Shown here one piece after another: positions 3 to 63,785 of a DNA stretch of 64,000 bases. The position numbers were made by a program, and so were the translations under genes. Below the pieces are notes generated by a model, which was not told the DNA's origin, did not search any database, and saw only the letters and a list, made by a program, of their open reading frames with translations. Within the stretch, counting starts at the first letter, position 1. Each line of letters opens with the position of its first letter. Origin of the DNA: Nitrospirales bacterium (GTDB lineage Bacteria; Nitrospirota; Nitrospiria; Nitrospirales; UBA8639); NCBI GenBank assembly GCA_963555755.3, contig OY820905.2:4512001-4576000 (forward strand), in the 5' to 3' direction.

Positions 3-1397
3 GGCGAAGTCCTCCGAGAGCAATGGCTGCAGCACCGCGGTTCGTTTGAAGAGGCGTCTACCGTTCGGTTGGGACGATTGCTTGGCGCCCGCTATCTCTT
101 GAGTGGCCAGTATTATGGTGGAGGAGACGACTTGGTCTTGGAAGTCCATCTGCTTGGGGTGGAGCATGGGGCGGTCATCCGTACGTTTCGGGTGACTGGT
201 TCGGCCGATGCCATCCAGGATTTGGAACTCGATCTCGCGTCCCGTTTAGGACGGGTGTTTGATTCCGCGGCGATAGGGCAGACTGAGGATGCGGGTTCCG
301 ATTCTGTTGTGGAGGACAACTCTCCAGCGAGGCAATTTGATCCCCAGGAGATACGTGCAATTCAAAAAGAGGTTATGACTCAGGACCAATTACCTGAAGC
401 GCATGACCCACTCACGACGACCCTCCGGATCGATACGGTCTTGGGGTTGGAGCGCCTCCGATATGTGCGTGAGGCAGCGGCGCGTATAGCTCATGACCTG
501 TGGACCCAGTCTCTAGTCATTCGATTGGGGGCATTGCGGTACGAGTCTCAAGCTGGAAATGATCTAGGTCCGGATTCCTTGATCGTGAGCGTTCCGTTGT
601 CGGCCACCATTCGGGAAGAAACCATTCGACGGCTCGACTCAACGTTAACGATTGTGGAGCCTGATGATGGTGTGGAAGGAACTGATCTTGTTCTGCGGTA
701 TGAAGAATCCGATGCTGGAGCGCAACAATTGTTTCGCGAAGCCCTCCAATCACCTCGACGAATATTTGTTCGTGCGATTCGAGAATCAGGGGAGGTGCTC
801 GCGGTTTCTTCCGAATGGTCCTGGCGAACGGATTTGCATGTTCGTGTTCAACCTGATGGAACAGTCAGTCTCCTTCAATCCTCATCTCCATTCCTGAAAG
901 GGAACGCCACATTTGGAGGGGCGCTCCTGACTAGCCACGATTCCACCATCACGTTTGATGCCGTGGTCGTTCCGGTTCCTGAAGAATCCCGATCCATCTC
1001 CGTTGAATTCGTCATGGATCAGCGCGAGGTGGACGATCCTCTCGCGACAGAAAGGGAATTGGCCGCATCTGTTCAAACCTGGTTGCTTCATCGTTGGTTT
1101 CCGCCTGTGGCGGAATCCATTCCCACGCCGGGGTATCTTCCTGGTAACCGCCGTCGAGGTGTGGCGTTGGTTTCGGGTAAAGGCGGGACGATCTCTCGGA
1201 TCCAGGTCATTCAGATCGATGAAGAGGAAAAATTTGCCCAAAGTGTGAACGATGCATTGCGAAAATTGCCGGGGACCTGTTTCCGAGAATGCGGGAAGCT
1301 TGACCCCAAGAAGGCCCCACCCAAATCGTTTTCCCTGCGAGTCCAGTTTGAATTAACGAAGGATATTCGGCATGCCGGACTCGGTCGTCTGAGATAA
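3..1397 (+). CDS. Hypothetical exported protein, 5'-truncated; CsgG/TolB-N-like domain at the start and a possible TonB-C-like domain at the end
   Basis: The frame is open from the window start. 'EVLREQWLQ...TVRLGRLLGARYLLSG' resembles CsgG/HfaB-type domains. Stop TAA at 1395-1397. Confidence 0.55.
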   Translation, partial: GEVLREQWLQHRGSFEEASTVRLGRLLGARYLLSGQYYGGGDDLVLEVHLLGVEHGAVIRTFRVTGSADAIQDLELDLASRLGRVFDSAAIGQTEDAGSDSVVEDNSPARQFDPQEIRAIQKEVMTQDQLPEAHDPLTTTLRIDTVLGLERLRYVREAAARIAHDLWTQSLVIRLGALRYESQAGNDLGPDSLIVSVPLSATIREETIRRLDSTLTIVEPDDGVEGTDLVLRYEESDAGAQQLFREALQSPRRIFVRAIRESGEVLAVSSEWSWRTDLHVRVQPDGTVSLLQSSSPFLKGNATFGGALLTSHDSTITFDAVVVPVPEESRSISVEFVMDQREVDDPLATERELAASVQTWLLHRWFPPVAESIPTPGYLPGNRRRGVALVSGKGGTISRIQVIQIDEEEKFAQSVNDALRKLPGTCFRECGKLDPKKAPPKSFSLRVQFELTKDIRHAGLGRLR

Positions 1398-1740
1398 GGG
1401 CCGGCTAAACAATAACTGGGACAAAATCGCACCTAGATTTGGGGCGACTTTGGACGTAACGATTGAGAAAAAGCCATGGCATAGCACCGCTATGTTGAGG
1501 CTGTTTCGATTGAGGTATGTTCAACCTAGAAACGGCGGTTGGGCACAAAAAAGCCGTGCAAGCTATTGGTGTGCATGGTGACATACAAAAAGTCGTGGTC
1601 ACCTTGGTGGTGATGAGACATTTTTGTATTTTGCCAGGTGCGCCAAGAGGTTGTGCGGACTTTTGTGATCCAACTGCCGTTTCTAGGTTCAAAGGTGGTC
1701 CGAAGATGGGATGGGATTTTGTCCCAGTTTTGGAAGGCCC
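1398..1740. mobile_element. Diverged MITE family A' copy carrying a nested family B element
   Basis: Starts GGGCCGGCTAAACAATAACTGGGAC right after the TAA stop. The body aligns by eye to the family A copy at 13054-13233. The right end is degenerate (GTCCCAGTTTTGGAAGGCCC). Confidence 0.75.
1524..1688. mobile_element. MITE family B (165 bp)
   Basis: TIRs ACCTAGAAACGGCGGTTGG / CCAACTGCCGTTTCTAGGT, flanked by TCA...TCA (3-bp TSD). Confidence 0.9.
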
Positions 1741-7689: not shown

Positions 7690-9593
7690 CAGGGCTATTT
7701 CATATTAAAGTGTAACTTTATAGATAATAAGGAATAATCGATTTAGGCTGGCTTTTTCTTTTCGTTTACGGCATACTCTTTTGCATGCCAGACGAATCGC
7801 CAAGCGGACAGCCGGACATTGATCTGAGGCAAGTCGTGGTTCGCCCAATTGTCCGAGACGAAAAGGACGCCTTCAAGACCCTTCTCGACAGACACCACTA
7901 CCTCGGTCATGCCCCGCTGATTGGCCAATCGATACAATATCTCGCCTGTGTGCAGGATCGCTGGCTGGCCTTGCTGGTGTTTGCGGCGGCGGCCCTCAAA
8001 TCGAGACCGCGAGACCACTGGATCGGCTGGCCCCCCTGTTTTCAATGGCAACGACTCCATTTACTGGCCAACAACACCTGGTTTCTCATGCTGCCGGGCT
8101 GTTCGCAAAAGAACCTCGCCTCGAAAGTCCTGTCGCTCTGCGCGAAACGGATCTCGGCCGATTGGCAACTGTACCACGGCTACCCCTTGCTCCTCTTAGA
8201 GACCTTCGTCGATCCTGCCCGCTTCACCGGGACCTGCTATCGGGCCGCCGGGTGGCACGAGCTCGGTCTGACACGAGGGTTTCGCAAGTCGAACACGTGT
8301 TATGTTCAGCATGAGAGACCGAAGCGCATCCTAGTCGTGCGGCTGCATCCCCAAGCCCGAGAGATCCTTGCACGCCCGATGCTTGATCAGCCCTATCAGA
8401 AAGGAGAAGCGCCTCAGATGAGATTGAATACAAAACAGACGGACTCCCTCTTTACGTATGTGGTGCAGCTGACCGATCCCCGCCATTTGCAAGGGCAACG
8501 GCACACCCGACGCGCCCTCACGGCGATCATGTTCTGTGCCACCTTGTGCGGCGCGCGCGGCTATGAAGCGATCTCGGACTGGGCCCAGCAGTTATCGCAG
8601 CCGATGCGCAAGCGGCTAGGCTGTACTCAGCGAGGGGGGCGCTACCTCGTCCCGAGCCGCAGCACTCTTTACCGCTTTATCACGGCCGTCGACCCCTGTG
8701 AAGTCGATACCCTGCTCGGCCGGTGGCTGGACACCTTCGGCGGGGAGGATCAGGGCATTGCCATTGATGGGAAGACCATGCGGGGGACGTCGAAGGTCCC
8801 AAGCGAACAGACCCACGTCCTCAGCGCCGTCACCCATCAAGCCGGGCGCCACCTCACCCAAAAAAAGTTCACTCCAAGACCAATGAGATCCCCTGCGTGC
8901 GGCCCCTGTTAGATGCGCTCGAGATCGCAGGGAAGGTGATCACGGCGGATGCGCTCCTCACCCAGAAAGAGATTGCCGAGTACCTGGTGCACGAACGCGG
9001 CGCCGACTTCGTCTTCACCGTCAAGGGAAACCAGCCCACCTTGAAGCACGACATTGAGGCCTTAGCGTTGCGAGCACGCCGGTGCGATTATGCCACCACC
9101 GAGAAAGGCCATGGGCAGATCACGACCCGCAGGATCTGGTGCGATGACTCCCTGAATGCCTATGTCAACTTTCCTCATGTCCAGCAAGTCTTCTGCATTG
9201 AGAGGGAAGTGACGCATCTCAAGCAGGGCCTCACGACCGTCGAAGCGGTCTGCGGTGTCACGAGTCAGTCCAAAGACAAGGCGGGGCCGAAGACCATCCT
9301 CTCGCAAAACCGAAAGCATTGGAGTGTGGAGAATAAGCAGCATTATGTGTTGGACGTCACCTTTGATGAAGACAGGAGTCAGATACGAAGTCTCAATGGC
9401 CCAATGGTCATGACCTGTCTGAGACGCTATGCCATCAGTCTCTTACGCCTGAAAGGCTACACCAATATCGCGCAGGCGTGTAGACTGCTCTGGGGCAAGC
9501 CCCATTTAGCCATCCGCATGGCCCTGCCCTGAAAAAGAGCGCACAAAAAACCTCATGGAATCCCTTGCTTATAAAAAGAATGAAATGGCCCTG
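7690..9593 (+). mobile_element. ISAs1-family insertion sequence (1904 bp)
   Basis: TIRs CAGGGCTATTTCAT / ATGAAATGGCCCTG. Perfect 10-bp TSD AGCATTGCAA at 7680-7689 and 9594-9603. Confidence 0.95.
7785..9532 (+). CDS. ISAs1 transposase with N-terminal DUF4338-like domain, joined by a -1 frameshift at 8861-8867
   Basis: ORF1 has HHYLG, RDHWIGW, LLETFVD..F.GTCYRAAGW, then DPR and IAIDGKT. The -1 frame after A_AAA_AAG reads VHSKTNEIP..VITADAL..VKGNQPTL..R.HWSVEN..HYVLDVTFDED. Confidence 0.9.
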
Positions 9594-9681: not shown

Positions 9682-9860
9682 GGACCTGAGAGAAAATAAC
9701 TTGGCCATCTCGCATCCAAGGTTCGGGCCATCTTTGAACGGGTCTCAATCGAAACACCCTCACCATAGCTGTGCTATGCCTCGGGTGTTTCTCAATCGTT
9801 CCGTCCAAATCCGCCCCAAATCTTGGCGCAATATTGTCCAAGTTATTTTCTCTCAGGTCC
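9682..9860. mobile_element. MITE family A (179 bp)
   Basis: 23-bp TIRs GGACCTGAGAGAAAATAACTTGG / CCAAGTTATTTTCTCTCAGGTCC; TSD TGA in a CTGAG context. Confidence 0.93.
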
Positions 9861-9910: not shown

Positions 9911-10033
9911 CGGGGCTGTTGAAAAAGGCTGTCCAGCAAGGCCGCAGGGGATTTGGCGCCCGCAGCGTACATGGAGTACGTGAGGACGACAAAGCCCCGA
10001 GAACGCCGCTGGCGGACTTTTTCGACAGCCCCG
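9911..10033. mobile_element. MITE family D (123 bp)
   Basis: TIRs CGGGGCTGTTGAAAAAG / CTTTTTCGACAGCCCCG; homologous (inverted) to 57820-57944; no clean TSD. Confidence 0.8.
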
Positions 10034-16738: not shown

Positions 16739-17875
16739 ATGGCTGCCCTCACTATTCTGATTGTCGCAGGAGAGGCCTCAGGAGATCTGCACGGTGCAAA
16801 CTTGGCGAAGGCATTAAAGATCCGTGAGCCCAATGTGAAGTTGCTTGGAGTTGGCGGCCAGCACATGCGTTCCACTGGGGTTGAGCTGTTAGGCGGCATA
16901 CAACGACTGGACGCCGTGGGAGTTCCAGGGCCAGTGACGATTGGCAAGGGGATAGCGAATATTTTGAGGATGAAGCGATTTTTCAAGGAACAGGCCTTGG
17001 ATGGCGTGGTCTTCATCGATAACCCGTCCATGAATCTTCGGTTGGCCCGAATTGCGGCAAAACTTGGGCACCGGGTAATCTATTATATCGCCCCACAAAT
17101 TTGGGCATGGGGCCAGCATCGGATCCATTTAATTAAACGTGTCGTTCGCCGCATGATCGTGATTTTGCCCTTCGAAGAAGCCATCTATCGTGACGCCGGC
17201 GTGCCCTGTGATTTCGTCGGGCATCCGTTACTCGATACGTTGGCACCTCAGTATGACCGGCGAATGGTGCGGAAGCAGCTGGGGTTGCCTGAAGAGGGTT
17301 TGATCATCGGGGTCTTGCCGGGCAGCCGCATATCAGAGGTCCAATCGCTGTTACCCGAAATGATTCAGGCGGTGAAGCAGCTGAGAGATTTTGCCCCCGA
17401 TGTGCAATGTGTCATTGGTCAGGCCCAGTCCATTTCCGGTGAATACCTCGAAGGGCTGTTCGATCGTGAGGGATTGCCCGTGACCATGATCGCTGATCAG
17501 ACGAATGAGGTCATGGCGGCTTCTGACTTGCTGCTCGTGGCGTCGGGAACGGTCACGCTTCAGGCCGCGCTGGTGGGGACGCCCATGATTATTACGTATC
17601 GGTTATCGTGGTTGACTTACCAGATTGCCACACGCATTGCCTTGGTGAACCATCTCGGGTTGGTTAATGTGGTGGCTGGACGTGGTATTGTGCCGGAATT
17701 GCTCCAAGCGGAGGCAACTGCCGAACGATTATATGAAGAGGCCCTGAGTCTGTTAACGGATCGTGGCCGGTATCATCAGATGCAAGAAGCGTTTCAATGT
17801 ATTCGTGAACAAATGGGTACGCCCGGGGCGTCAGACCGGGCGGCTCAAGTGGTATTAGCCGAATGTCGAGCGTAA
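16739..17875 (+). CDS. lpxB: Lipid A disaccharide synthase
   Basis: AGEASGDLHG; YIAPQIWAW; ILPFE; FVGHPL; LPGSR..E; SGTVTL. Confidence 0.96.
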   Translation: MAALTILIVAGEASGDLHGANLAKALKIREPNVKLLGVGGQHMRSTGVELLGGIQRLDAVGVPGPVTIGKGIANILRMKRFFKEQALDGVVFIDNPSMNLRLARIAAKLGHRVIYYIAPQIWAWGQHRIHLIKRVVRRMIVILPFEEAIYRDAGVPCDFVGHPLLDTLAPQYDRRMVRKQLGLPEEGLIIGVLPGSRISEVQSLLPEMIQAVKQLRDFAPDVQCVIGQAQSISGEYLEGLFDREGLPVTMIADQTNEVMAASDLLLVASGTVTLQAALVGTPMIITYRLSWLTYQIATRIALVNHLGLVNVVAGRGIVPELLQAEATAERLYEEALSLLTDRGRYHQMQEAFQCIREQMGTPGASDRAAQVVLAECRA

Positions 17876-42636: not shown

Positions 42637-42728
42637 TGGCGGAGAGGGCGGGATTTGAACCCGCGGTAGGGGGTAAACCCTACGGCGGTTTAGCAAACCG
42701 CTGCCTTCGGCCGCTCGGCCACCTCTCC
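42637..42728 (-). tRNA. tRNA-Ser (GCT)
   Basis: GGAGAGG acceptor stem; anticodon arm GCGGT-TTGCTAA-ACCGC; long variable arm; GGTTCAAATCC; encoded CCA. Confidence 0.97.
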
Positions 42729-49475: not shown

Positions 49476-49528
49476 CCTGGTGCTGAGGAGTTTGCAAATT
49501 ACCAGAATGCTGAAGATTCTTTTATTGA

Positions 49529-50018
49529 ACCTAGAATCGGCAGTTGGATCACAAAAGTCCGCGCAAGCTATTGGCGCACCTAGGAGCCTGTCCAAGATTA
49601 GACAGATCTACTGCGGGTGCGCTGGGTTTGGCCAGATCTTTCGATCCTTTTCGTTAAATAGTCACCACTATTCGCCTCAAACGATCGAAACATCTGACTC
49701 AAACCAGACCCCCCTCGTCACGATCGCTAATCTCGGACAGGCTCCTCACAAAATACAAAAATATCTTATCACCACGGAGGGTTCGCGCAAGAATACCTTC
49801 CCCGGTTTGGGTGCTGAGACACCTGTCTGGCAAGGCGCGAGGACTGCGCATACTCCTCGTATGGAAAGGACGAGCAACGCCGCCAGAAAGGATGGATCGA
49901 CGCCCAAACCGGGGAAGGTATTCTTGCGCGAACCCTAAGGTGACCACGACTTTGTGTATTTCACCAGGCACACCAATTTCTTACACGTCTTTTTTGCGCC
50001 CAACTGCCGTTTCTAGGT
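49529..50018. mobile_element. Composite MITE: family B containing family C (49583-49745) and family E (49779-49935)
   Basis: B TIRs with TSD TGA; C ends GGAGCCTGTCC / GGACAGGCTCC; E has a 33-bp perfect IR starting GGGTTCGCGCAAGAATACC. Confidence 0.92.
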
Positions 50019-52118: not shown

Positions 52119-52282
52119 ACCTAGAAACGGCAGTTGGATCACAAAAGTCCGCGCAAGCCCTTGGCGCACCTGGCAAAATACAAAAAGGTCTCATCACCAG
52201 AGAGGTGACACGACTTTTTGTATTTCACCATGCACACCAATATCTTACACGTCTTTTTTGCGCCCAACTGCCGTTTCTAGGT
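52119..52282. mobile_element. MITE family B, uninterrupted (164 bp)
   Basis: 19-bp TIRs ACCTAGAAACGGCAGTTGG / CCAACTGCCGTTTCTAGGT; TSD TCA. Confidence 0.93.
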
Positions 52283-57220: not shown

Positions 57221-57625
57221 ATGAAAATGTGGGTGGGAGTTGTCATTTTTGTGCTGGGTGTGGGCGCTGGATTGAGCGGAGTGCAATTTATTCCGGCCTC
57301 CGTGTCACTGTATTTGCCTGCTGTGCTTCAAGCTCAGAACGAAATTGTGAAGGGGATCGTTGTTCGAAAGCACCAGGAGTCTGAACGGTTGCTCCTAACG
57401 GTGTCTACTCCTCGGGGAGCCTTGTTAGCCACGTTTACCCAGCAAATCCCAGAAATTGATTTATTGGTTGAGGAAGGGGATGAGGTGACGTTGGGACTGA
57501 CACAGTATGCTCCGTTTGTTCATGATCCCACGATCAAAGGTGTGATGAAGCCCGATCATCTCCCAGCCCAACCAACAGCCGACCCGGAACCCGACAACGG
57601 GAATCTACCAATCTTGGAATCGTAA
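57221..57625 (+). CDS. Hypothetical protein with N-terminal membrane anchor
   Basis: 134-codon ORF with a hydrophobic N-terminus. Confidence 0.65.
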   Translation: MKMWVGVVIFVLGVGAGLSGVQFIPASVSLYLPAVLQAQNEIVKGIVVRKHQESERLLLTVSTPRGALLATFTQQIPEIDLLVEEGDEVTLGLTQYAPFVHDPTIKGVMKPDHLPAQPTADPEPDNGNLPILES

Positions 57626-57640
57626 TCCGAACCCGTCTTA

Positions 57641-58281
57641 GGACCTGAGAGAAAAGAACTTGGCCATCTCGCATCCAATCTTCGGGCCATCATTGAACCT
57701 AGAAGCAGCAGTTGGATCACAAAAGTCCGCGCAAGCTCTTGGCGCACCTAGGAGCCTGTCCAAGATTAGACAGATCTACTGCGGGTGCGCTGGGTTTGGC
57801 CAGATCTTTCGATCCTTTTCGGGGAATGTTGAAAAAGGCCCCCAGCTGCGTTCTCGGGCTTTTGGCGTGCTCACGTACTCCGTGTACGCTCCGCGCGCCA
57901 AAACCCCTGCGGCCTTGCTGGATGGCCTTTTTGAACATTTCCCGTTTTCGTTAAATAGTCACCACTATTCGCCTCACACGATCGAAACATCTGACTCAAC
58001 CCAGCACCCCCTCGTCACGATCGCTAATCTCGGACAGGCTCCTCGCAAAATACAAAAATGTCTCATCACCACCGAGATGACCACGACTTTTTGTATTGCA
58101 CCATGCACACCAATATCTTACACGTCTTTTTTGCGCCCAACTGCCGTTTCTAGGTTGAACGGGCCTCAATCGAAACACCCTCACCATCGCTGTGCTATGC
58201 CTCGGGTTTTCCTCAATCGTTCCGTCCCAATCCGACCTAAATCTTGGCGCGATATTGTCCAAGTTATTTTCTCTCAGGTCC
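57641..58281. mobile_element. Four-layer nested MITE: A[57641-58281] > B[57697-58155] > C[57751-58042] > D[57820-57944]
   Basis: Each layer has its own TIR pair. Duplications are TTA (A), TGA (B), TA/TC (C, one mismatch) and TTTT (D). Removing each layer restores the family sequence seen elsewhere in the window. Confidence 0.93.
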
Positions 58282-58294
58282 TTATCTGATCCTC

Positions 58295-60505
58295 ATGTCG
58301 CTGAACCTCAAACATGAAAAAACCCTTCAGGCCCTCGCGCGTGCGCATGGTATCGAGTTGAGGTATCGTGATGGGACGGGCATGGTTCGAAGGGTTTCGA
58401 CTTCGACCGTTCATGCTCTATTGCATGCGATGGGAGTGAACGTGGCAACGTACGAGGAGGTGCATCAATCTTTGAAGGCCGTTCGCCTTCAACCTTGGAC
58501 GAGGGTGCTCGACGAGGTGTTTGTGGTCTGGCAAGGGAACACTTCCTCACTGTGGCAATTAACGATTCCCACGGCTGCCACTTTGCTTCCTCAACTGGCA
58601 GTGACTTGGCAGTTGGAAAATGAGCGAGGGCATCAGGTCGGCGATCAGGGTTCCGGAGAACGCCTTTCGCTGATTGCCTCACGAACGATTAATGGAAGGG
58701 CGTGCTGTCGGTTGGGCGTGCCGTTTCCCGAAAACCTGCCTCTTGGCTATTATCGTTTAACGGTCACGGCATCGTGGCCCTCTCAGACCGTCTGTGGAGA
58801 GGCGTTGGTCATTGTCGCACCCAAGCAGTGTTACCTGCCGGACCAGCCCAATCGGTCTTGGGGGGTGACGGTTCAATTGTATGGGTTATCGAGCGCTCGA
58901 AACTGGGGTATTGGAGATTTTAAAGATCTTTCGATGTTGGCCACGTGGGCAGGTAGCCACCTTGGTGCTTCGACGATTGGCATCAATCCACTCCATGCCC
59001 TGTCAGCCAAATCGATCAGCCCGTATTCTCCGTCGAGCCGGTTATTCTTTAACCCGCTGTATCTGGATGTTGAGGCGATTCCCGAATTTCAGAACGCCCT
59101 CGCTTTACAAGAGCAGGTCAAAAGCGAGGCCTTTCAAGATCGCTTGAAAGTGCTGAGGGACCGCCGAACGGTGGATTATGATGAAGTCCGCGCGGTGAAA
59201 TTTCCTCTCTTGGAATCCTTGTATGCGGTGTTTTGCCAACACCATGTGGCCACGGGATCCGAACGGGCGCACGCGTTTGATCAATATGTTCAACAGCAAG
59301 GTACAGTGTTGCGCCGGTTCGCCGTATTTCATGTTTTACAGGAACGGTATCGCCATGCGTCGTGGTGGCAATGGCCCGTCGAATATCAGGATTCAACGTC
59401 GGTTGCTGTTGAGGATTTTGCCAACCAGCATCTGGATCGGCTGCGGTTTTATCAATATTTGCAATGGCAGTGCGAGGATCAACTCGGTGAGTTAAACTCA
59501 ACCGCAAAACAGGCGGGATTGTCTTTAGGGTTGTATCACGACCTGGCAGTTGGAATCGTTGCCGATGGGGCTGATGCCTGGATTTTTCAAGATCAGCTTG
59601 CGCGTGGGGTCTCGATTGGGGCCCCTCCGGATCTGTTTAATTTGTCGGGTCAAAATTGGAACTTACAACCACCGATCCCGACTCGACTCCGATCGCAGGC
59701 GTATCATTTTCTCAGGGAAACTTTTCGTCACAACATGCAGTATGGTGGCATGTTACGAATTGATCATGCGCTGAGTCTCTTTCGGTTATATTGGATTCCC
59801 GAGGGCAAGTCGGCTAGTGAGGGCGCCTATGTTCGGTATCCGACTGACGAGTTGTTGGCGGTTCTTGCCTTGGAAAGCGTCCGGCATCAGGTGATGGTCG
59901 TTGGAGAAGATTTAGGAACTGTGACCCCTGGGATTCGACGAAAATTCGCTCAGGCAGGCTTATTGTCCTATCGTTTATTAATGTTTGAAAAACATTCTGG
60001 CAGAGGATATCGAACCCCAAAAACGTTTCCGGAACAAGCGTTAGCTTCGGTCAATACGCATGACCTTCCCACCCTACGCGGATTTTGGGTTGGGCGAGAT
60101 ATTGAGACGAAGGAGCAAATTGGGTTATACCCTTCTGCATCGCATATGGACCAGGATCGAGTCACTCGCACCCAGGATCGGCAAGCCTTACTGCGGGCTT
60201 TGGGGAGGGAACGGCTGTTGCCAACGGGTACGCCATCTCAAGCGGAAGAATTGCCTCAATGGTCGGATGAATTGTGCCGGGCGATCTATGCGTATGTAGC
60301 CCGGACCCCTTGCCGGGTGATGGCGACCTCTCTTGAGGATTTATTGGGAGAGGTGGATACGCCCAATGTGCCCGGTGCGCCGGAGGGTGCGTATCCTGTG
60401 TGGCAACGAAAGTTGAGCCGACCATTTGAAGAATGGCAACACGATCCGGATCTTCTCGATTTTGCAGCCGCCGTGCATCGCGAGCGTGCGGCTTCTTCGG
60501 TGTAA
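58295..60505 (+). CDS. malQ: 4-alpha-glucanotransferase (GH77)
   Basis: WGIGDF; SPYSPSSR; YHDLAVG; GAPPD; GQNW; RIDH; GEDLG; THDLPT; N.PG. Confidence 0.95.
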   Translation: MSLNLKHEKTLQALARAHGIELRYRDGTGMVRRVSTSTVHALLHAMGVNVATYEEVHQSLKAVRLQPWTRVLDEVFVVWQGNTSSLWQLTIPTAATLLPQLAVTWQLENERGHQVGDQGSGERLSLIASRTINGRACCRLGVPFPENLPLGYYRLTVTASWPSQTVCGEALVIVAPKQCYLPDQPNRSWGVTVQLYGLSSARNWGIGDFKDLSMLATWAGSHLGASTIGINPLHALSAKSISPYSPSSRLFFNPLYLDVEAIPEFQNALALQEQVKSEAFQDRLKVLRDRRTVDYDEVRAVKFPLLESLYAVFCQHHVATGSERAHAFDQYVQQQGTVLRRFAVFHVLQERYRHASWWQWPVEYQDSTSVAVEDFANQHLDRLRFYQYLQWQCEDQLGELNSTAKQAGLSLGLYHDLAVGIVADGADAWIFQDQLARGVSIGAPPDLFNLSGQNWNLQPPIPTRLRSQAYHFLRETFRHNMQYGGMLRIDHALSLFRLYWIPEGKSASEGAYVRYPTDELLAVLALESVRHQVMVVGEDLGTVTPGIRRKFAQAGLLSYRLLMFEKHSGRGYRTPKTFPEQALASVNTHDLPTLRGFWVGRDIETKEQIGLYPSASHMDQDRVTRTQDRQALLRALGRERLLPTGTPSQAEELPQWSDELCRAIYAYVARTPCRVMATSLEDLLGEVDTPNVPGAPEGAYPVWQRKLSRPFEEWQHDPDLLDFAAAVHRERAASSV

Positions 60506-63205: not shown

Positions 63206-63481
63206 CAGGGAATGTTGAAAAAAGCCGCCAGCCTACGCTTAAGCTTCGGCCGACGGGCCAGCGGCGTTCTCGCCATTTTGCCGTGCGCACTACTTCATGT
63301 ACGCTCCGCGCGTCAAAATGGCTGCAGCCTTGCTGGACGGAACCTTCGGAAAGACCTCAGGGCATGCTTTTTGAACATTTCCCGTTTTCGTTGAATAGTC
63401 CAACTATTCGCCTCAAACGATCGAAACATCTGACTCAAACCAGCACCCCCTCGTCACGATCGCTAATCTCGGACAGGCTCC
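63206..63481. mobile_element. Family D MITE (63206-63384, with two REP-like inserts) joined to the right arm of family C
   Basis: CAGGGAATGTTGAAAAAAG...TTTTTGAACATTTCCCG-TTTT-CGTTGAATAG...GGACAGGCTCC, the same D/C junction as at 57944. Confidence 0.85.
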
Positions 63482-63785
63482 TAGGTGGTGCAGGTGAGAG
63501 TCACAGGAAAAAAAGTGTGACAAAGAACACAACGTTGGAGTGATAGGAGCCACGGCTATCATTTGTTGTAATGGAATATAATTAGTGCCCTTGAGAGAAA
63601 GGGGGAATATCTCCGCAATCGAGATGGTCGTGGCTCTATCGCTGGCAAAGGTCATTGCGGCTGAGGGATGAGCTCGGGATCTTCCCCCTCTTTTCAGAAA
63701 CACATTCTTTTCAGCCATTTTATGCTGTTTGCTAACGCGCTGTCCATTTTTTTCTCGACATACGAACAATCTCTTTATGTACTTA

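What the first reader, a model, noticed from the sequence alone, without database searches (positions are those of the whole stretch)
57641..58281. Four-layer nest of four unrelated miniature transposable elements
Seen: A (TIR GGACCTGAGAG, TSD TTA) contains B (ACCTAGAA, TSD TGA), which contains C (GGAGCCTGTCC, TA), which contains D (CGGGGAATGTTG, TTTT). Each family also occurs without its insert elsewhere: A at 9682, 13054 and 63786; B at 52119; C at 49583; D at 9911. The insertion history can therefore be reconstructed by subtraction. Inference: MITEs act as preferred landing pads for other MITEs, forming an ordered hierarchy. Nesting this deep is familiar in plant genomes; I do not know of it described at this depth in bacteria.
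Basis: partly seen in the sequence, partly recalled or inferred. Interest (0 to 1): 0.8.

Follow-up and report, generated by a model that had tools for sequence, protein, structure and literature searches.

The report
Nested mini-transposons reshuffled by recombination
This 641-base stretch is four small non-coding jumping elements sitting one inside another, but it is not an ordered 'landing-pad' hierarchy: it likely arose from a few old one-off insertions that were then carried around as packages and swapped between copies by recombination, an ordinary outcome in a genome crowded with such elements.

Summary
The four-layer nest is real. All four repeat pairs sit where stated, removing inner layers restores family consensus, and a close relative has the empty site. 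Each family has about 110-230 ends per side in this genome, and A[B[C[D]]] occurs at three loci.

The 'ordered hierarchy of preferred landing pads' is not supported. Reverse nests exist (A-in-B, B-in-C, C-in-D). Nested copies share one site and one orientation (25:1, 47:1). Counted as distinct events, nesting does not exceed target density.

Best reading: a few old founder insertions, shared with relatives, were spread as composite MITEs and shuffled between copies by gene conversion. D sits in 41 of 84 C copies regardless of host divergence, with a linked base about 20 nt away (27/41 vs 1/40). The focal nest is a mosaic, so subtraction does not give this locus's history.

C's likely mobiliser is a resident IS1182 element; none was found for A, B or D. 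Elements inside elements are published for prokaryotes, and the scan noted nested MITEs in other genomes. Interest is modest.

The parts
57638..57640 (+). Left target duplication of A (TTA)
   Evidence: Repeated at 58282-58284; a single TTA at the orthologous site in G006
57641..57693 (+). MITE A, left arm (family about 180 nt, 3-nt TWA duplication); carries the T-to-A marker at 57692 found only in B-carrying A copies
   Evidence: 48 of 71 exact 3-nt TSD; marker in 4 of 14 A[B], 0 of 77 B-less
57694..57696 (+). Left target duplication of B (TGA within TTNAA)
   Evidence: (72 of 84 exact)
57697..57748 (+). MITE B, left arm (family 165 nt; the same ends occur in many phyla)
57749..57750 (+). Left TA of C's target
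   Evidence: (TA/TA in 33 of 50 unique-flank C)
57751..57815 (+). MITE C, left arm (family 162-163 nt; ends match a resident IS1182 element); identical to D-less C copies at G000:C1:130573 and 4561583
57816..57819 (+). TTTT repeated on both sides of D (apparent duplication; parse ambiguous)
57820..57944 (-). Hairpin element D, C-resident subfamily; identical to D of the nest at G000:C1:2075922
   Evidence: (ssDNA fold z = -8.2)
57945..58042 (+). Second TTTT and right arm of C
58043..58044 (+). TC in place of C's right TA: an inherited junction marker of the B[C] lineage, also present in G005
58045..58155 (+). MITE B, right arm
58156..58158 (+). Right target duplication of B (TGA)
58159..58281 (+). 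MITE A, right arm
58282..58284 (+). Right target duplication of A (TTA)
57221..57625 (+). Upstream conserved gene of no known family, 134 aa here and 150 aa in G006, where it runs through the insertion site
58295..60505 (+). malQ (4-alpha-glucanotransferase); likely start ATG 10 nt after the right TTA

Best explanation
The stretch is four non-coding miniature elements nested one inside another, likely built from a few old founder insertions that were carried around as composite MITEs by the outer element's transposase and swapped between copies by gene conversion. Shown: the anatomy, the empty site, one site and one orientation per junction, junction markers shared across loci and species, composites with their own target duplications, and layer-by-layer mosaicism. 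Inferred: (1) B landed in A, C in B and D in C essentially once each, at sites matching their ordinary target words. (2) Because inner insertions leave the outer inverted ends intact, the outer transposase moved the whole package; for C this is probably the resident IS1182 enzyme. (3) Homologous recombination among more than 100 paralogous copies moved or removed inner layers. (4) An A-type jump placed the outer shell here, and the inner layers came with it or were converted in. No host function is needed.
For: Single founders: orientation 25/26 (B in A), 47/48 (D in C; the odd one is a truncated fragment), p<=8e-7. At unique sites B takes TGA 21 and TCA 25 times, so it has no orientation preference at such a target. 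Founder markers that a fresh jump would not copy: TC instead of TA in 15 B[C] copies, and a broken left duplication (GGA/TGA) in 4 of 14 A[B] copies. The same junctions are in G005, G006 and (C[D]) G018 of another genus. Composite mobility: duplications intact in 18 of 25 unique-flank C[D], 36 of 40 insert-bearing B and 8 of 12 A[B]. Recombination: the GGA-marked B insert lies in 2 alpha-type and 2 main-type A hosts. Among 28 C[D] copies, D distance is unrelated to host distance (Mantel -0.03, p=0.57) and D is less diverse (0.059) than its hosts (0.10-0.12). D presence needs 20 changes on the C tree against 24.4 shuffled. Of 39 polymorphic C sites, the 4 linked to D lie within 40 nt left of the site (position 46: 27/41 vs 1/40) and none of 16 sites from position 98 on is linked. 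The focal D is identical to a copy whose C-left differs at 6 of 69, while the focal C-left is identical to D-less copies.
Against: Event-level counts are minima: repeated insertions at the same base and orientation would be merged, so a true preference could be hidden. The non-coding background is a rough own gene call (74% coding). General linkage decay is significant only for C (p=0.014), not A (0.08) or B (0.54). Linkage to D is seen on the left side only (right-side sites p=0.07-0.08), and the focal copy keeps the D-less allele at position 59, under 10 nt from D, which needs a very short tract or fits rival 1. D's low diversity could reflect structural constraint. The C tree has 148 columns for 84 rows with many open forks. 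A subfamilies were defined after looking at the data. One B-in-A copy is reversed, so that site was hit at least twice. No transposase was found for A, B or D, and no movement was observed.
Confidence: 0.72

Rival explanations
1. Site- and orientation-specific re-insertion (homing-like): an unidentified recombinase or nuclease repeatedly puts D into the same site of empty C copies, and perhaps B into A, using the short repeated core.
For: D occupies one site in 41 of 84 C copies, is younger-looking than its hosts and is unlinked to them. 36 of 41 close (>=90%) relatives of the nest's D are in C. Two copies, including the focal one, carry D with no co-transfer at position 59. The genome holds target-specific IS110 elements inside D-type hairpins.
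Against: A host base 20 nt outside the site travels with D (27/41 vs 1/40), and broken duplications travel with B and C. A fresh enzymatic insertion would not copy these. No such enzyme was identified.
Confidence: 0.13
2. One reading: each MITE is a preferred landing pad for the next, in a fixed order, and the nest grew here by four successive insertions.
For: The anatomy is as described. Most ends show a copy-level excess of nesting. The A site was hit in both orientations at least once.
Against: Reverse nests at all three junction types. No event-level excess. Extreme orientation bias. Junction markers predate this locus. The nest is a mosaic.
Confidence: 0.05
3. Clonal composite with repeated precise loss: each nest arose once, moved only by transposition, and inner hairpins were lost by slippage between their short direct repeats, without exchange between copies.
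For: D is a 125-nt hairpin between direct repeats. C copies identical in sequence occur with and without D. Precise loss by such repeats is proposed for Haloquadratum (PMC3119063, passages).
Against: Loss cannot put near-identical D copies into hosts 9-22 differences apart, nor the same marked B into different A subfamilies. It may still contribute to D-less copies.
Confidence: 0.08
4. Assembly artefact: collapsed repeats were stitched into a false nest or false mosaics.
For: No contig or long read spans the whole nest, and 58071-58126 lacks a listed perfect piece in X1.
Against: The genome is in 2 contigs and 99% complete. The junctions recur at many loci and in other genomes. X1 contigs match with 0 differences. 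Duplications match across the whole nest and with the empty site.
Confidence: 0.02

Closest known systems
MGE conglomerates of Haloquadratum walsbyi (PMC3119063; passages read)
   Same: Hundreds of transposase-free elements; 192 cases of one element inside another; some MITEs mobile without an intact cognate transposase.
   Different: There a real targeting preference is reported (SMR-A into PATE/IS605 palindromes) and MITEs are not the hosts. Here MITEs host MITEs, reciprocally, and the excess traces to few founders plus spread.
Pneumococcal BOX/RUP/SPRITE clusters (PMC3049150; passages read)
   Same: [quoted passage not shown]
   Different: No depth-4 nest, composite spread or conversion analysis in the passages seen.
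IS1182-derived MITEs (table in PMC3852290: 160-169-nt ISMac2 MITEs; the same paper separates 'Russian doll' nests as a routine step; passages read)
   Same: C is 162-163 nt, has matching ends and has a resident intact IS1182 partner.
   Different: The apparent duplication here is TA within CTAG rather than the 4 nt listed, and half of the C copies carry a passenger.
REPINs of Pseudomonas (PMC3116915; passages read)
   Same: Hairpin elements forming clusters by insertion into or next to existing ones.
   Different: REPINs are linked to RAYT (HUH) enzymes. A, B and C have DDE-type ends and duplications; D's mobiliser is unknown.
ERIC/IRU repeat
   Same: D is a roughly 122-nt hairpin with a central small stem; a 24-nt core match lies in an E. 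coli intergenic region.
   Different: The match has E=4, covers 19% of D and is unannotated, so ERIC identity was not established here.

Membership tests
Bacterial MITE (A, B, C, D) | Terminal inverted repeats | tested here: met
   All four pairs found, 70-95% complementary; conserved across families
Bacterial MITE (A, B, C) | Family-typical target duplication | tested here: met
   A 48/71, B 72/84, C 33/50 exact among unique-flank copies; the focal C has an inherited mismatch
Bacterial MITE (D as a 125-nt unit) | Family-typical target duplication | tested here: inconclusive
   3 of 85 short D have a 5-nt duplication; the long form has it in 69 of 138; the TTTT in C is a single founder event
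Bacterial MITE (A-D) | Short, no transposase | tested here: met
   122-180 nt; the 209-aa frame across the nest has no Pfam or NCBIfam hit
Bacterial MITE (A-D) | Many dispersed copies and empty sites | tested here: met
   113-232 ends per side; empty site in G006; insert-free hosts
Bacterial MITE (A, B, D) | Cognate autonomous IS with matching ends | tested here: inconclusive
   None in own genome, in 80 loci with B ends, in 80 metagenome loci with A ends or in the 59 transposase loci listed. ISNCY elements share an 11-nt core with A's end, a lead only
IS1182-derived MITE (C) | Ends match an IS1182 element | tested here: met
   18 of the first 19 nt of C's right end match one end of G000:C1:2920458-2922130, whose 462-aa protein scores 375 bits on NF033551 (cut-off 270); 2 copies; same CTA/TAG flanks
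IS1182-derived MITE (C) | Mobilisation by that transposase | not testable with these tools
   Needs an assay
   A-in-B, B-in-C and C-in-D all present
   12 family ends tested, event-level p>=0.31; counts are minima
ERIC (D) | Homology to ERIC over its length | tested here: inconclusive
   Only a 24-nt, E=4 match in unannotated E. coli DNA; no reference ERIC sequence was on hand
Known structured RNA | Rfam match | tested here: not met
   Only a tRNA at 42640 in the window

The most novel reading that the evidence does not exclude
Passenger mini-elements 'home' through a host MITE family: D has swept into half of all C copies at one base and one orientation, by conversion biased towards the filled allele or by a dedicated site-specific enzyme, so non-coding parasites of non-coding parasites spread without jumping to new DNA.
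Probability: 0.15. Interest if true: 0.65.

Novelty: new member of a known kind. Interest (0 to 1): 0.3.

Why it matters
It is a caution and a small resource. Deep nests in bacteria look like targeting hierarchies and readable timelines, but here they come from few founders plus composite movement and exchange between copies, so counting nested copies or subtracting layers misleads. With about 80-115 full copies per family and a 50:50 filled/empty site in C, this genome allows within-genome conversion tracts and insertion bias to be measured directly. B's ends occur across many phyla with no transposase yet identified.

Tried and rejected
Rfam: nothing at the nest. Promoter/terminator scan: nothing above shuffles. 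The 209-aa frame across the nest has no family hit and is treated as spurious. Long elements bounded by A, B, C, D or E ends first looked like autonomous partners, but proved to be unrelated IS1634, IS1595, IS5, IS110 and IS630-like elements inserted inside MITEs. Pfam IS982, IS701, ISL2-type and DUF4096 searches of the own genome: 0 matches each. Plasmid searches with A and B gave only E=2 fragments. A blunt-insertion model for C (no duplication) was considered because of the TA/TC junction; flank counts did not separate it from TA duplication plus mutation, and it was dropped. A wide-gap paired-end pattern search of relatives could not be run, so that route to A/B/D partners is untested. One junction count mixed A and F junctions and is not used. 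The first A-subfamily table used wrong columns and was redone. Expression was not tested: only contigs, no raw RNA reads. The paper on very small cyanobacterial mobile repeats (recalled) was not held. Literature searches found no paper on a four-deep bacterial MITE nest or on conversion of nested layers. The library lacks most subscription papers, and no supplements were read.

Full report
Observation. The nest is in the sequence as described: A 57641-58281 between TTA copies, B 57697-58155 between TGA copies, C 57751-58042 between TA and TC, and D 57820-57944 between TTTT copies. Removing inner layers restores A, B and C to 94-98% of their family consensus. It lies between a conserved gene of no known family and malQ. 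In the close relative G006 the two genes are joined by a single TTA, so the outer shell is a real insertion with a 3-nt duplication. Public contigs match most of the nest with no differences, but none spans it whole. The whole folds strongly (RNA z = -12.6), as nested inverted repeats must.

The genome. G000 is 4.62 Mb in 2 contigs, and 18.6% of it is multicopy at the 24-mer level. Six MITE families (A-D plus two more, E and F) cover 143 kb, 3.1%. Of 821 repeat clusters, 95 reach depth 2, 19 depth 3 and 4 depth 4; three of those four are A[B[C[D]]]. The focal nest is therefore one of a set.

What the layers are. A has a 3-nt TWA duplication (48 of 71 unique-flank copies exact), B a 3-nt TNA duplication in TTNAA (72 of 84), and C TA in CTAG (33 of 50). 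C's ends match an intact IS1182-family element present twice. No partner was found for A, B or D. B's ends occur in Proteobacteria, Nitrospinota, Chlamydiae, Verrucomicrobia and Acidobacteria as 165- and 236-nt elements, and none of 80 fetched loci held a transposase between the ends. D is a long hairpin.

No ordered hierarchy. Mapping the flank of every element end shows B in A (25 + 1 reversed at one site, plus three minor sites) and also A in B (21). It shows C in B (two main sites) and also B in C, and D in C (47) and also C in D (2, one giving D[C[D]]). All three junction types of the nest exist in reverse.

No landing-pad excess at the level of events. Copy counts exceed the share of target words lying in MITEs for most ends, but the nested copies collapse to 1-10 distinct sites per family end, and none of 12 ends exceeds expectation (p>=0.31). 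These are minimum counts on a rough background, so this alone is not proof. The orientation bias is stronger evidence: 25/26, 47/48, 35/37 and 33/34, although B shows no such bias at unique sites. Damaged duplications are inherited: TC for TA in 15 B[C] copies, GGA for TGA in 4 A[B] copies. The same junctions occur in G005 (6, 12 and 1 exact matches for A|B, C|D and C|B, the first two allowing one mismatch), in G006 (1, 6, 0) and, for C|D, in G018 of another genus; G002 and G008 had none.

How the copies spread. Composites move as units: 18 of 25 unique-flank C[D], 36 of 40 insert-bearing B and 8 of 12 A[B] have intact outer duplications. But they are not clonal. The GGA-marked B lies in two A subfamilies. 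D is in 41 of 84 full C copies; filled and empty hosts are equally diverse (0.114, 0.109); D is less diverse than its hosts and uncorrelated with them; and D presence is scattered over the C tree (weakly resolved). Host bases close to the site travel with D (position 46: 27 of 41 vs 1 of 40; unique-flank copies only 16 of 25 vs 1 of 22; position 59 p=0.004), while distant sites do not. This is the pattern expected of gene conversion with short tracts from one founder. Against it: the signal is one-sided, general linkage decay is significant only for C, and the focal copy shows no co-transfer at position 59. A site-specific homing route and precise loss therefore remain possible contributors.

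The focal locus. Its D is identical to that of the nest at C1:2075922, its C-left is identical to D-less copies at 130573 and 4561583, and its A-left and B-left are closest to A[B] and A[B[C]] copies elsewhere. Subtraction gives the family-level order of founder events (each host existed before its guest arrived) but not a sequence of four jumps at this site.

Comparison. Element-in-element insertion is in print for prokaryotes: 192 cases in Haloquadratum (PMC3119063), mutual insertion of pneumococcal repeats (PMC3049150), REPINs into REPINs (PMC3116915), and 'Russian doll' nests as a routine annotation step (PMC3852290). I saw abstracts or search passages only, not whole texts or supplements. 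A 2024 MITE review (PMC10969869, passages) and PMC3733652 and PMC2700814 (passages) did not describe deep nests. Ten searches found no report of a four-deep bacterial MITE nest or of conversion of nested layers, in a library that lacks most subscription papers. The scan's earlier notes record nested MITEs in up to eight other windows, all marked as other genomes (unchecked).

Verdict. A real, tidy example of an ordinary process, in undescribed families as far as my searches go. The part worth following is the sweep of D through C. Interest 0.3.

Noticed in passing
window 57623-57640 and L135:1501-1953: The upstream gene stops 5 codons before the insertion site (134 aa). In G006 the same gene is 150 aa, runs through the site and overlaps the start of malQ. 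The insertion and the early stop may be linked.
   Followed up: partly
G000:C1:1893134-1894491 and six similar copies: An IS110-family element sits at one position inside a 27-nt insert within D-type hairpins (7 elements in the 1350-1359-nt size class; 5 inspected): a likely RNA-guided element targeting a repeat inside a repeat.
   Followed up: partly
D family, e.g. G000:C1:19442, 2378941, 3593746; window 63208-63385: D copies carry many tiny 20-45-nt hairpin inserts at recurring positions, some nested in each other, so nests deeper than four layers exist elsewhere in the genome.
   Followed up: no
G000:C1:2680641-2681025, 1495110-1495422, 17152-17847; G005:C127: Recursive A[B[A...]] structures give a 102-nt tandem unit (A-left plus B-left), also seen in G005; a direct sign of recombination between reciprocal nests.
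   Followed up: partly
D, E, F and the 236-nt form of B: A shared inner module (CAAGG ... small hairpin ...
   Followed up: partly
L342:140-260 (E. coli rpsP-ffh intergenic region): A D-like stretch with a 24-nt near-exact core, found in 2291 of 5426 E. coli genomes at E about 4; unannotated.
   Followed up: partly
G000:C1:2549815, 3591524, 2884740, 2332331, 2361897: Full IS1634, IS1595, IS5, IS630-like and a two-gene element are each inserted inside a MITE.
   Followed up: partly
window 7785-9532: ISAs1-family transposase in two frames with an N-terminal Druantia DruA-like domain; about 43 copies in the genome.
   Followed up: no
window 1392-1716, 49526-50018, 63208-63482: Further nests in the window: a variant A carrying B, B carrying C and E, and a C[D] that has lost its left part.
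   Followed up: partly
G000:C1:2032116-2033710: A B element encloses, besides C[D], a 1.1-kb stretch with a PIN-like and a small antitoxin-like frame (judged by eye): possible gene capture by a MITE.
   Followed up: no
L140 / G005:C325 and L135: In G005 and G006 a C[D] or C element sits just upstream of the same gene, a different position from the nest in this genome.
   Followed up: no
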